From assembly GCA_000165345.1 (NCBI GenBank), contig CM000429.1, positions 1 to 64,000 on the forward strand: DNA of 64,000 bases. The letters are read 5' to 3'. The notes under the pieces were generated by a model, which did no database searches, was not told the origin of the DNA, and saw only the letters and a program-made list of their open reading frames with translations. Both the position numbers and the translations under genes were made by a program. Of the stretch, positions 6,974 through 11,926 are shown piece by piece (position 1 is the first letter of the stretch; each line of letters starts with the position of its first letter).

Positions 6974-9900
6974 ATGGAAAATTTTAATTCGATTCCAACA
7001 ATTAATTATCGGGGCAATTATCCTGGACAACAAAACGCTGGAGAAATTAATTTTGATGAAGAATATGATAGTTCTGAGTCCGAATTTTCATTTCCTGTTG
7101 TAGGATCTACTAATTCAGCTAATATTAAAACATCGGGAAAGAATAAAGCTTTTATTGGAAGAGACAAGGAAAAAGCAAAAAGATACTACATACAATCAAC
7201 ACTTGAGGTAAATATTGATAATCAATATCCTGTAGATAATATAGAAATATATAGACAAAAAATTTTCCCATTTCAACTATCTCCAAATATTTCTCTTGTA
7301 GCACCAGAAGAAAAAAATGTAAATAAATCCAGAATTTCTAAAATTTGGAAAGCTTTGTCAAATTCTGAGCCATCCATCATTGGTATTTTAAGAGGCAAAG
7401 GATTTGTTTACACTCTTCCAGAGACAATAGACTTATTATTATATGCTACTTTTTGTTTTGGATTTATGATGGTTATTCTTTTTTTTAATTCCTCAGGAAG
7501 TGTTAAACATTCAATTCACAATATGTTAAACCAGCAAACTTTTAATTTTCAATCTTCATTAGCATCCGAGTGTCTTGGAATACCTGATGAAAATGGAGTA
7601 AGCAGTTATGAACAATTATACTCAAAAAAATTTATTCAATACGTTATTGAACCCAATAAAGACACTTTTTTTAATTCGATGAGTGACGACGTTGTGTTTC
7701 CATGTGGAAGAGGAACAATTAAGGACGTGGCTACTATTGCGGATTACCTGAGATGGATTGCATTGGTATTATTTCCTTCATTTATCTATATTAGGAACAC
7801 AATGAATTCGGCTCTCACGAGCCATATTAAAATTTCAACTCAATTTAATAATGGAACAGAGTCTGAGTTAACATATGTTTTAGATAAAGGAATATTAAAA
7901 GGAAATAATATATATATCTATCCTTATGACACGGAGTCTGCTCTTGAAATTTTGGATTTTATTGTAGAAAAAAATTATTTTAATAATACAGAAGTTTCAA
8001 GTATTAATACTCGTTTTTTCACTTATAATCCTTTTGTTGGGATAAAAACATCGGTTATGATTACTCTTGGAAATTCTAAAATAACTGGCTATTATGATTC
8101 AAGTCTTGATGTAAAATCTTTGCTAATACATACAAATTCATATTCATATATATTTATGGCTCTTGCAATTATTTCAGGTTTCTTTGGTTTCTTGAGATTT
8201 TTTACACATAAAGATGTCATCGTGTCTCCAATCATGACTATAAAAAGTTCTATGAACAGGGTATTTGCATTGCTATCTTCTATATTAATAATTATTTCTG
8301 TAGTTACATATATGTGTATATTTATTCCAATTAATTGGCTATGGACTGAAGATTCTTCTCTCAAATACTCTAGTTTGCTTTCATTACATGAAGATAAAAT
8401 GGAAGAAAATTTTACTGAACAGTCAAGTCACTTCGAATATCTTGCTACTTTTGATATTATATTTAGAACTTCAGGTAGCGCAAGTTTAATATTCACACTT
8501 TGGGAGTTTTTTTGGTTCCTTTCGGTTAAAATATCTCGCAAGCATGCTACTTCGATTACTGTTGTTGTAAAAAAAGTAACTTTTCCTATATTACTTGGAG
8601 CTTTGTTGGTTTTGTTTTTTTTCTCAAGTTATGGAATAATCGGTTTAATTTTGCTAGGGGATTATACGCCTATGTATTCTTCGGCTAAGTCTATATTATT
8701 CCATATGTTATTGTTCATTGTAGGGAAAACAGATGAGATTTGGATTTTGTTAAATGAAACAGGCATATATACTGGGATTTTTTTTGTACCTATCATTTGT
8801 ATTTTCGGAATTATTTTGCCTAGCTATGTTTATGCTTTGTTTTGCCATATATATAACTCTACAATAGACACAGTTGAATGGTGTTGGGACAATTGTACTA
8901 GGGAAACTGAAACAAATATCCAATCTTCTCCCTGGTATATAGAAGAGAACTCAATTTACGAAAGGAATATTCGAGATGATAATGCTTCATCTACACAGAA
9001 AACTAACGAATCAAAAGGCATTAATAACAATGAATCTCAAGAATTAAATTTAAACATGCATCAAAATAGTCAAATGAATGATTTGCTCTTTGTCAGAGAT
9101 AGGTATTCAAACTTCATGGCTCAGACAACAACCTTTGAAAGATTATTTGATATTTTTTTTTCAAGAAAAAAATATTTAACTTTAAAGCAAAAGAAGGAGA
9201 TTGAAATGGGTAAATTTGATTCTTATGAACAAACTAGAAAAATAGCAAGTTTACATGGAAGTAATGTTAATAACTTGAATAATTCGTTGCCAAGTTTAAC
9301 AAACAATAATGCAAATGAAAATAGTGAGATTATTAAACAACAAAGTCAAAATGAAAGTTTGGAAGGAAGTGAATATGTAACACTTGTTACAAAGTCAATA
9401 CATGAATATTATTGGTCTATTTTCAATTCTGGAAAAACTATTTTTTCAAATCCAGGGACTGTTTCAAATTATGGAAATAATATCTCGAGTACCAGCCAAC
9501 AATTAATGTTTAGAATGGTTGGCACAATGGAAGCTTCAGTTGATATGACACAGTTCCTGATTTCTAAGAACAGGGACTCAGACTACTCAGATTCTATAGG
9601 TTTAAACGACCAAAATGGACTTCCTCTTTTAGTTGGAAATGTAATGGCTGCCTCACCATGCCCAAATATGGAAAATTTATTAACTTTTACAGAAAAAATC
9701 AATAGAGTGGGAGAGAGCATCTGGTTTACGGTTTTGTTGTGTTTTATTTTAATATTATTAATTACTTCGAGTATTTTTGAGTTTAGAAAACAAATTTACA
9801 ATGATTTAATTAATTCAATTTCTTGGAACCAATTCCATACTAATATTAATGTAAATGCGATGAAGCCAATTTCCGCAAAGGGGGAGCTTGATATTAAGAA

Positions 9901-11926: not shown

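What the first reader, a model, noticed from the sequence alone, without database searches (positions are those of the whole stretch)
6974..11926. 1650-aa protein with two tandem polycystin/TRP-like channel domains in a single polypeptide
Each half has the PKD2/mucolipin topology: TM1, a large extracytoplasmic loop, then TM2-6 with a pore segment before the last TM. The post-pore motifs are LLGDY... and FVGNFDFYEAY, which resemble the PKD2 ILGDFDY motif. A covalently duplicated 2x6-TM polycystin-like channel, which would presumably dimerise to give a 4-domain pore as two-pore channels do, is an uncommon architecture. It would be a candidate Ca2+/cation channel in an organism with a reduced channel repertoire.
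Basis: partly seen in the sequence, partly recalled or inferred. Interest (0 to 1): 0.5.

Follow-up and report, generated by a model that had tools for sequence, protein, structure and literature searches.

The report
Two-repeat polycystin-type channel of Cryptosporidium
This Cryptosporidium parvum gene encodes one long membrane protein made of two divergent polycystin (PKD2)-like six-helix channel units joined head to tail; the gene was already listed as a polycystin homologue, but its doubled, two-pore-channel-like build has not been spelled out in the papers I could search.

Summary
The 1650-aa ORF at 6974..11926 (+) is real. It is identical to C. parvum Iowa II EAK88542.1. It has two S1 / large loop / S2-S6 units (res ~148-627 and ~909-1432), a ~280-aa linker and a ~220-aa tail.

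Deeper tests support the reading.
- **Repeat 2:** Foldseek matches only PKD2/PKD2L1/TRPML1 (best E 1.3e-10).
- **Repeat 1:** a Cryptosporidium-only profile hits only PKD2L1 in the whole PDB (E 0.005). It also hits a bona fide PKD_channel fragment (E 2.9e-5 in 1.84 billion proteins).
- **Both repeats:** they are homologous to each other (hhalign E 4.6e-6; reversed controls 0.4-0.8).
- **Coccidian relative:** the Besnoitia protein, of the HHA_247370/TgTRPPL-1 family, has the same build, with PKD_channel in each half.

One correction: 'LLGDY' ends S5. The repeat-1 filter is V-G-K585 and the repeat-2 filter is V-G-N1393, so neither keeps the PKD2 aspartate.

The TrpP-homologue call dates from 2011. 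The tandem architecture is a modestly new variant. Dimerisation and ion conduction are inferred, not shown.

The parts
6974..11926 (+). Complete intron-less ORF of 1650 aa plus stop. It is C. parvum EAK88542.1 / CPATCC_000434, annotated 'membrane protein with 12+x transmembrane domain'.
6974..7414 (+). N-terminal cytosolic region (res 1-147). It includes the invariant stretch KRYYIQSTLEVNID.
7415..7489 (+). Repeat 1, S1 (res ~148-172).
   Evidence: hydropathy; AF2 helix
7490..8125 (+). Repeat 1, large luminal/extracellular S1-S2 loop (212 aa). It is predicted to be mixed alpha/beta and sits at the position of the polycystin TOP domain. The fold is not confidently modelled.
8126..8854 (+). Repeat 1, S2-S6 channel core (res 385-627). 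S4 to S6 aligns in register with PKD2L1.
8675..8767 (+). Repeat 1 pore helix, filter and second pore helix (res 568-598: YSSAKSILFHMLLFIVGKTDEIWILLNETGI). The filter is V583-G584-K585, and K585 is at nt 8726-8728.
8651..8665 (+). LLGDY (res 560-564). This is the end of S5 of repeat 1, not a post-pore motif. G562 is invariant (G438 in the A5 numbering).
8855..9697 (+). Cytosolic inter-repeat linker (res 628-908). It holds the invariant motifs YNSTIDTVEWCWDNC..SPWYI and SIGLNDQNGLPLLVGNVMA, plus an N/S-rich low-complexity stretch.
9698..9790 (+). Repeat 2, S1 (res ~909-939).
9791..10570 (+). Repeat 2, large luminal/extracellular S1-S2 loop (260 aa). AF2 gives helix plus beta-sheet with pLDDT 66-79 in its C-terminal part. 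It is included in the ~500-column Foldseek alignments to PKD2.
10571..11269 (+). Repeat 2, S2-S6 channel core (res 1200-1432). There is a sub-threshold but full-length Pfam PKD_channel match, covering profile positions 10-220 of 225.
11099..11182 (+). Repeat 2 pore helix, filter and second pore helix (res 1376-1403: YSSVFGVISSTINLFVGNFDFYEAYKCS). The filter is V1391-G1392-N1393, and N1393 is at nt 11150-11152.
11270..11923 (+). C-terminal cytosolic tail (res 1433-1650). It has an acidic stretch (GIDYDEDDPID), then the family-specific motif LTDEQW..EWAEYEAESFIDRFR (res 1522-1550, nt 11537-11623), then a charged helical, probably coiled-coil, end. The tail is conserved in the coccidian relatives.

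Best explanation
The gene encodes a very divergent group-2 TRP (polycystin/TRPP-like) channel subunit. An ancient internal duplication has placed two complete units in one chain. Each unit has S1, a large luminal/extracellular loop domain, S2-S4, S5, pore helix 1, filter, pore helix 2 and S6.

The predicted topology puts the N-terminus, the ~280-aa linker and the ~220-aa tail in the cytosol, and the two big loops on the luminal/extracellular side.

**Shown here:**
- the ORF and the 6+6 topology;
- similarity of each repeat to PKD2/PKD2L1;
- homology between the two repeats;
- conservation of the whole architecture across Cryptosporidium and in Sarcocystidae coccidia (the TgTRPPL-1 / 247370 family).

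**Inferred:**
- Two chains would pair, possibly helped by the C-terminal coiled coil. That would give a pseudo-tetrameric pore with alternating repeat-1 and repeat-2 pore domains, as two-pore channels do.
- The pore would pass cations.
- The filter would be unusual. PKD2 and PKD2L1 have L-G-D, whereas this protein has V-G-K (repeat 1) and V-G-N (repeat 2), each followed two residues later by an Asp. Selectivity is therefore likely to differ from that of PKD2.
- Because TgTRPPL-1 is reported in the ER, an endomembrane cation or Ca2+ release or leak role is the most likely job.
For: - **ORF and identity:**
- **Topology:**
- **Repeat 2 similarity to PKD2:** Foldseek best hit 8z6f_D (polycystin-2) at E 1.3e-10. 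There are 71 hits at E<=1e-3, and all 50 listed are PKD2/PKD2L1/TRPML1. Pfam PKD_channel covers profile positions 10-220 of 225 at E 0.079.
- **Repeat 1 similarity to PKD2L1:** the Cryptosporidium-only profile gives three PDB hits at E<=10, all PKD2L1, best 0.0048. It hits P0017 at E 2.9e-5 library-wide, and P0017 itself scores PKD_channel 1.3e-15. The top 47 Foldseek hits are all polycystin or mucolipin chains, best 5.6e-3.
- **Repeat-to-repeat homology:** hhalign E 4.6e-6 over 445 collinear columns, against reversed controls of 0.38-0.75. Smith-Waterman z is about 3.6.
- **Conservation of the architecture:** Besnoitia XP_029222248 (1633 aa) matches repeat 1 and matches repeat 2 plus the tail at E 1.7e-10. 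Its halves score PKD_channel 1.9e-4 and 1.7e-10. Its close homologue is HHA_247370. TgGT1_247370 is TgTRPPL-1, localised to the ER, according to PMC8216714.
- **Earlier listing as TrpP:** PMC3194816, Table 2.
Against: - There is no significant direct Pfam or PDB sequence hit with the window protein or with the first Cryptosporidium profiles.
- The structure models are poor, with mean pLDDT 42 and 51, and TM-scores to PKD2 of only about 0.2. The Foldseek evidence therefore rests on local 3Di/sequence order, not on a good global superposition.
- The canonical filter Asp is absent from both repeats. The repeat-1 position is not conserved (K/R/N/D among species), which fits a relaxed or non-conducting pore as well as an unusual one.
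- Oligomeric state, localisation in Cryptosporidium and conductance are untested.
- Orthology to TgTRPPL-1 rests on a one-way best hit and a shared tail motif, not on a reciprocal search.
Confidence: 0.6

Rival explanations
1. The protein has the tandem polycystin fold but is not itself a conducting dimeric channel. It would act like polycystin-1: a receptor-like or regulatory subunit whose pore is partly or wholly occluded. It would work alone as a sensor, or in a heteromer with the second, shorter Cryptosporidium TRP-like protein (XP_627518 in PMC3194816).
For: - Neither repeat has the filter Asp of PKD2, PKD2L1 or TRPML.
- Repeat 1 carries a Lys there, and the position drifts (K/R/N/D) between species.
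- The coccidian repeat-2 filters are S/C/Y.
- PKD1 and PKD1L3 chains appear among the Foldseek and profile hits.
- Cryptosporidium has a second TRP-like gene.
Against: - The pore helices, the filter Gly and the S5/S6 landmarks are conserved in both repeats across roughly 15 sequences.
- An Asp two residues after the filter position is kept in both repeats of most intestinal Cryptosporidium species.
- The protein has none of the PKD1 hallmarks. Pfam finds no REJ, GPS or PLAT.
Confidence: 0.17
2. The polypeptide is a precursor. It would be cleaved in the long linker to give two separate 6-TM subunits, which then assemble as a conventional hetero- or homotetramer. On this view the tandem arrangement matters only for co-expression and stoichiometry.
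For: - The 281-aa linker contains a poorly conserved, N/S-rich stretch.
- The paralogous Toxoplasma protein TgTRPPL-2 (predicted 237 kDa) runs mainly at about 150 kDa, and its authors mark a predicted cleavage site (PMC8216714).
Against: - Large parts of the linker are invariant across Cryptosporidium (for example FVRDRYSNFMAQ and SIGLNDQNGLPLLVGNVMA). That suggests a structured, functional connection.
- There are no cleavage data for this protein or for TgTRPPL-1.
Confidence: 0.12
3. The resemblance to polycystins is a by-product of hydrophobic helices. On this view the protein is some other 12/13-TM transporter, or the long ORF is an artefactual fusion of two genes.
For: - There is no significant direct Pfam or PDB hit.
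- The models are low-confidence.
Against: - The hits are family-specific, not generic. The only PDB sequences found by the repeat-1 profile are PKD2L1, aligned in register through S4, S5, filter and S6.
- All 50 listed Foldseek hits for repeat 2 are group-2 TRPs.
- Reversed-sequence controls abolish the repeat-to-repeat signal.
- The ORF is continuous in C. parvum, and the same 1.5-1.7-kaa architecture recurs in at least 10 Cryptosporidium sequences and 2-3 coccidian ones.
Confidence: 0.04

Closest known systems
Polycystin-2 family channels (PKD2/TRPP2, PKD2L1/TRPP3; Pfam PF08016 PKD_channel)
   Same: - Each repeat has S1, a large extracytoplasmic S1-S2 loop, S2-S6, two pore helices and a conserved filter Gly.
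- There is an in-register match of FSxF...(I/L/V)(L/V)G x (F/T)D between PKD2L1 and both repeats.
- The cytosolic tail ends in a helical, charged segment.
- These are the best and essentially the only structural and sequence matches.
   Different: - There are two units per chain instead of one.
- Identity is about 12-17%.
- The protein scores below the Pfam gathering threshold.
- The filter Asp is replaced by Lys (repeat 1) and Asn (repeat 2).
- No EF-hand is detected.
- The linker and tail motifs are lineage-specific.
Toxoplasma gondii TgTRPPL-1 (TGGT1_247370) and its Besnoitia, Neospora and Hammondia orthologs
   Same: - The overall build is the same: about 1.5-1.6 kaa with two 6-TM units.
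- They share the tail motif LTDEQW..EWA..EA..F.D.FR followed by a coiled coil.
- This family is the nearest non-Cryptosporidium relative found among 1.84 billion representatives.
   Different: - Identity is only about 17-22% in the cores.
- The filters differ: VGN and LGS/VGC/VGY.
- The Cryptosporidium-specific post-S6 Cys/Trp motif is absent.
- TgTRPPL-1 is itself uncharacterised apart from a reported ER location (PMC8216714).
- The characterised channel TgTRPPL-2 (TGGT1_310560) is a different paralogue.
Two-pore channels (TPC1/2/3)
   Same: The architecture is two 6-TM units in one chain. In TPCs, two chains form a four-domain pore. This is the model for how the protein probably assembles.
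   Different: - TPCs belong to the voltage-gated Ion_trans lineage, with no large S1-S2 loop domain.
- No TPC appears among the listed PDB hits of either repeat.
- The duplication here is therefore independent and lies inside the TRPP lineage. The relationship is analogy, not membership.
PKD1-PKD2 and PKD1L3-PKD2L1 heteromers
   Same: These are pores built from two divergent polycystin-type pore domains, one of them with a non-canonical or basic pore lining. Repeat 1 with Lys in the filter, set against repeat 2, is conceptually similar.
   Different: - Those complexes are made of separate chains at 1:3 stoichiometry.
- PKD1 has 11 TM helices and large REJ, GPS and PLAT modules, none of which is present here.

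Membership tests
Polycystin cation channel (Pfam PF08016 PKD_channel / TRPP) | Profile match above the curated Pfam threshold (22.4 bits) | tested here: not met
   The whole protein and both halves give 0 PKD_channel hits. Isolated repeat-2 S2-S6 scores 12.8 bits at E 0.079, though it spans profile positions 10-220 of 225. The threshold is met only by the Besnoitia relative: repeat 2 at 41.1 bits, repeat 1 at 21.4 bits.
Polycystin cation channel (Pfam PF08016 PKD_channel / TRPP) | Six TM helices with a long extracytoplasmic S1-S2 loop, and both termini cytosolic | tested here: met
   Supported in both repeats by hydropathy, AF2 helices and charge bias of the short loops. The S1-S2 loops are 212 and 260 aa.
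Polycystin cation channel (Pfam PF08016 PKD_channel / TRPP) | Significant sequence or structure similarity of the S1-S6 unit to solved PKD2/PKD2L1 structures | tested here: met
   Repeat 2: Foldseek E 1.3e-10, and all 50 listed hits are PKD2, PKD2L1 or TRPML1. Repeat 1: the profile hits only PKD2L1, at E 0.0048, and Foldseek gives 5.6e-3. The repeat-1 evidence is weaker. TM-scores are about 0.2 because the models are poor.
Polycystin cation channel (Pfam PF08016 PKD_channel / TRPP) | S1-S2 loop folded as the polycystin/mucolipin (TOP) domain | tested here: inconclusive
   There is no Pfam Polycystin_dom hit. The repeat-2 loop has a helix plus 3-4 strands at pLDDT 66-79 and lies inside the ~500-column Foldseek alignments. 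The repeat-1 loop is modelled at pLDDT below 50.
Polycystin cation channel (Pfam PF08016 PKD_channel / TRPP) | Selectivity filter L-G-D with the acidic residue lining the pore | tested here: not met
   The Gly is conserved, but the following residue is K585 in repeat 1 and N1393 in repeat 2. An Asp follows two positions later in both repeats.
Polycystin cation channel (Pfam PF08016 PKD_channel / TRPP) | Tetrameric pore that conducts cations | not testable with these tools
   This needs a multimer structure and electrophysiology.
Two-pore channels (TPC) | Two 6-TM repeats in one polypeptide | tested here: met
Two-pore channels (TPC) | Repeats belong to the voltage-gated Ion_trans lineage, with TPCs as nearest relatives and no large S1-S2 domain | tested here: not met
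   No TPC chain appears among the listed PDB hits. The nearest are PKD2 and PKD2L1, then TRPML, then bacterial Nav. Both repeats have S1-S2 loops longer than 200 aa.
Polycystin-1-like receptors (PKD1 family) | 11-TM build with REJ, GPS and PLAT modules ahead of the channel-like last six helices | tested here: not met
   No such Pfam domains were found at E<=10.
Apicomplexan TRPPL-1 family (TGGT1_247370-like) | Collinear similarity over both repeats plus the family-specific C-terminal LTDEQW..EWA..EA..F.D.FR / coiled-coil tail | tested here: met
   A reciprocal best-hit test against a complete Toxoplasma or Cryptosporidium proteome was not possible.

The most novel reading that the evidence does not exclude
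The apicomplexan TRPPL-1 family, including this Cryptosporidium gene, may be an independently evolved TRP-lineage 'two-pore channel'. Its pseudo-symmetric K/N filter ring would give it unusual selectivity. It could then serve as the long-sought ER/endomembrane Ca2+ release channel of Apicomplexa, which lack recognisable IP3 and ryanodine receptors (PMC3194816).
Probability: 0.1. Interest if true: 0.8.

Novelty: new variant of a known kind. Interest (0 to 1): 0.42.

Why it matters
Cryptosporidium has a very small set of recognisable cation channels. PMC3194816 reports no IP3R/RyR, TPC or Cav homologues and only two TRP-like genes. Each of the two is therefore a candidate for the Ca2+ fluxes that drive motility, secretion, invasion and egress, and a possible drug target.

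This one is a covalent double polycystin unit, conserved from Cryptosporidium to Toxoplasma-like coccidia. Three things follow.
- The 6-TM-to-12-TM duplication known from TPCs also happened inside the TRP lineage.
- The architecture predicts a dimeric, two-fold pseudo-symmetric pore with two different filters (VGK and VGN). That gives concrete residues to mutate.
- It links an unstudied Cryptosporidium gene to TgTRPPL-1, where genetics and localisation tools exist.

The finding is incremental rather than a breakthrough, because the family assignment itself dates from 2011.

Tried and rejected
- **Direct Pfam scans** of the whole protein, both halves, the C. hominis copies and C. serpentis gave nothing significant.
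- **phmmer of the protein against the PDB** gave only one chance hit, an acyl-carrier-like protein at E 1.3.
- **First Cryptosporidium-only profiles against the PDB** (A2, A3, 7 sequences each) gave nothing relevant. Repeat 2 stayed negative even after C. serpentis was added (A7).
- **The first hhalign of the halves**, using intestinal Cryptosporidium only, was not significant (E 0.052, probability 1%). It became significant only after C. serpentis and the coccidian sequences were added.
- **AlphaFold2 with 7-sequence alignments** gave low-confidence models (pLDDT 42 and 51). I therefore do not rely on TM-scores or global superposition.
- **The afdb50 library** was unavailable.
- **The profile A5** contained the bona fide PKD fragment P0017. 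It hit PKD2L1 at 1.7e-15, but I discount this as partly circular and rely on A6 without P0017.
- **Two word-index homologue searches**, one with the Besnoitia protein and one with the S5-to-tail alignment, were saturated by low-complexity candidates. They found no Plasmodium, gregarine or chromerid members, so the breadth of the family beyond Cryptosporidium and Sarcocystidae is unresolved here.
- **Literature searches** for a described tandem or two-repeat TRPP channel found none. That is absence in the held library only.
- **Gene-fusion artefact and generic transporter** readings were considered and rejected; see the rival explanations.
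Full report
**1. What is in the sequence**

The window has 20-35% GC. The ORF at 6974..11926 (+) is a continuous 1650-codon frame. Its translation is identical to C. parvum Iowa II EAK88542.1, 'membrane protein with 12+x transmembrane domain', also catalogued as CPATCC_000434. It lies on contigs of about 0.87-0.92 Mb.

It is conserved over its whole length in C. tyzzeri, the chipmunk genotype, C. ubiquitum, C. canis, C. xiaoi and (in part) C. felis, at 52-98% identity. 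C. hominis and C. meleagridis copies sit in the same 90%-identity cluster. C. serpentis has a 1670-aa ortholog, about 35% identical in the repeat cores. The gene is therefore real and under constraint.

**2. Topology**

- **Hydropathy.** It gives one helix, a gap of more than 200 aa, then five helices. The same pattern recurs about 760 residues further on.
- **AlphaFold secondary structure.** It agrees with hydropathy and adds two short helices between S5 and S6 in each half. This is the pore-helix-1 / pore-helix-2 arrangement of polycystins, mucolipins and Nav-type channels.
- **Loop charges.** With the N-terminus placed in the cytosol, the four short cytosolic loops are net positive (+1, +5, +4, +3). 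The four short luminal loops are negative or neutral (-7, -1, 0, -2).
- **Consequence.** Six helices per half puts the 281-aa linker and the 218-aa tail in the cytosol. The 6+6 reading is confirmed.

**3. Is each half polycystin-like?**

Direct tests fail. Pfam returns no family for the protein or its halves at E<=10. PDB sequence searches are also empty.

*Repeat 2*
- The isolated S2-S6 segment gives a sub-threshold PKD_channel match: 12.8 bits, E 0.079. It covers almost the whole profile, positions 10-220 of 225.
- The AF2 model is mediocre, with mean pLDDT 51. It reaches 65-79 in part of the loop domain and in S5-PH1-PH2-S6.
- Foldseek nevertheless gives 71 PDB hits at E<=1e-3. All 50 listed are PKD2, PKD2L1 or TRPML1. 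The best is polycystin-2 chain 8z6f_D at E 1.3e-10, and most alignments span about 490-510 columns.
- TM-scores are only about 0.2. This is evidence from local structure and order, not from a good superposition.

*Repeat 1*
- Sequence evidence is better. A profile of res 380-1450 was searched with HMMER against 1.84 billion representatives. It found, besides Cryptosporidium, only a 217-aa metagenomic fragment (P0017) and a 1633-aa protein (P0018). P0017 matches repeat-1 S4-S6 at E 2.9e-5. P0018 scores E 5.9e-4, with repeat-1 S4-S6 aligned to its residues 514-681.
- P0017 is itself a clear PKD_channel protein (E 1.3e-15).
- A repeat-1 profile built from Cryptosporidium sequences only, including C. 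serpentis, hits just three PDB sequences at E<=10. All three are PKD2L1, at E 0.0048-0.015, aligned in register from S4 through the filter into S6.

**4. The two halves are related to each other**

With C. serpentis and the coccidian sequences added, hhalign aligns repeat 1 and repeat 2 collinearly over 445 columns, from S1 to S6. The E-value is 4.6e-6 and the probability 86.5%. Reversing either alignment drops this to E 0.38-0.75.

All six forward cross-comparisons between Cryptosporidium and coccidian halves score 25-51, and all reversed controls score 12-20. A plain Smith-Waterman comparison gives z of about 3.6. This is an ancient internal duplication, not two unrelated membrane domains.

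**5. The architecture is older than Cryptosporidium**

- P0018 is Besnoitia besnoiti XP_029222248.
- Scanned separately, its first half scores PKD_channel 1.9e-4 (21.4 bits) and Ion_trans 5.4e-5. Its second half scores PKD_channel 1.7e-10 (41.1 bits).
- hhalign of the Cryptosporidium alignment against it gives E 1.7e-10 over repeat-2 S5-S6 plus the whole tail. This includes the shared motif LTDEQW..EWA..EA..F.D.FR and a charged helical end.
- Its close homologues are a Neospora protein and Hammondia HHA_247370.
- Gene number 247370 is the one the Toxoplasma community calls TgTRPPL-1. It is listed as a PKD-domain protein and localised to the ER (PMC8216714). That HHA and TG gene numbers correspond is my own knowledge of ToxoDB naming.
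- The characterised Ca2+-permeable channel TgTRPPL-2 (310560) is a different gene.

**6. Pore details and a correction**

Alignments with P0017 and PKD2L1 show that LLGDY (res 560-564) is the end of S5. Its Gly is invariant and matches the 'LFG' of PKD2L1.

The repeat-1 pore helix and filter read YSSAKSILFHMLLFIVGKTDE. The repeat-2 equivalent reads YSSVFGVISSTINLFVGNFDF. Both match PKD2L1 [21 protein letters not shown] without gaps.

The residue at the PKD2/PKD2L1 filter Asp position varies (six further C. parvum-group cluster members checked):

| Sequence(s) | Repeat 1 | Repeat 2 |
|---|---|---|
| C. parvum group | K585 | N1393 |
| C. felis | R | model truncated |
| C. xiaoi | N | N |
| C. 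serpentis | D | T |
| Coccidia | N | S/C/Y |

An Asp two positions later is kept in both repeats of most intestinal species. The channel scaffold is therefore conserved but the canonical acidic filter is not. That argues for unusual selectivity or, less likely, a non-conducting role.

**7. Mechanism**

- *Shown:* a two-repeat polycystin-fold membrane protein.
- *Inferred by analogy with TPCs, and from the fact that four pore domains are needed:* two chains form a pseudo-tetramer with alternating repeat-1 and repeat-2 pore modules. The C-terminal coiled coil may help assembly, as it does in PKD2-family channels.
- *Inferred from the family and from the ER location of TgTRPPL-1:* a cation or Ca2+ release or leak function in an endomembrane.
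- *Rivals:* a PKD1-like non-conducting or regulatory role; cleavage in the linker into two subunits; and, now unlikely, chance resemblance or gene fusion.

**8. Novelty**

- The C. hominis ortholog XP_667205, in the same 90%-identity cluster, and C. parvum XP_627866 were listed in 2011 as 'TrpP' homologues with 13 TMDs (PMC3194816).
- UniRef already names the C. hominis copy 'Polycystin cation channel PKD1/PKD2 domain-containing protein'.
- Family membership is therefore known.
- I found no description of the double-unit architecture, of the homology between the halves, of the link to TgTRPPL-1, or of the non-canonical filters. The held library is incomplete.
- Tandem duplications of 6-TM channels are common in protists for other families; PMC7576140, on Kv and CNBD channels, surfaced. 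That tempers the surprise.
- I rate it a new variant of a known kind, of moderate interest.

Noticed in passing
window 8852-8941 (res 627-656): A Cys/Trp-rich motif, YNSTIDTVEWCWDNC...SPWYI, follows S6 of repeat 1 directly. It is nearly invariant in all Cryptosporidium species, including C. serpentis, but absent from the coccidian relatives. It sits where TRP channels have their post-S6 (TRP-helix) region. Its function is unknown.
   Followed up: partly
window 9593-9649 (res 874-892): The linker motif SIGLNDQNGLPLLVGNVMA lies just upstream of the pre-S1 helix of repeat 2. It is almost invariant among the intestinal Cryptosporidium species, which suggests a structured or interaction element in the cytosolic linker.
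   Followed up: no
window 8726-8728 (K585) compared with orthologs P0007, P0008, P0016: The residue after the filter Gly of repeat 1 is Lys in the C. parvum group, Arg in C. felis, Asn in C. xiaoi and Asp in C. serpentis. The filter position itself is evolving within the genus.
   Followed up: partly
orthologs P0006 (C. canis), and P0008 plus P0019 (C. felis): The public gene models look defective. The C. canis model lacks 62 aa covering S5 and the pore helix of repeat 1. The C. felis gene is split into a 1072-aa piece and a 227-aa piece, the latter named 'polycystin cation channel protein'.
   Followed up: partly
window 11270-11923 (tail), motif at 11537-11623: The tail motif LTDEQW..(I/V)(K/R)EWA..EA..F.D.FR, followed by a charged helical segment, is shared between Cryptosporidium and Besnoitia/Neospora/Hammondia. 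It matches no Pfam family. It is a usable signature for finding this family in other alveolates.
   Followed up: partly
window 12119-13132 (-), 13466-16336 (+), 16597-17499 (+), 18868-21141 (-): The neighbouring ORFs are ordinary housekeeping genes. They are a UAA-family nucleotide-sugar transporter, a TPR protein, a protein kinase and a TAF6-like protein. Several other long ORFs (for example 21326-24442 and 29719-31791) have no Pfam match.
   Followed up: partly
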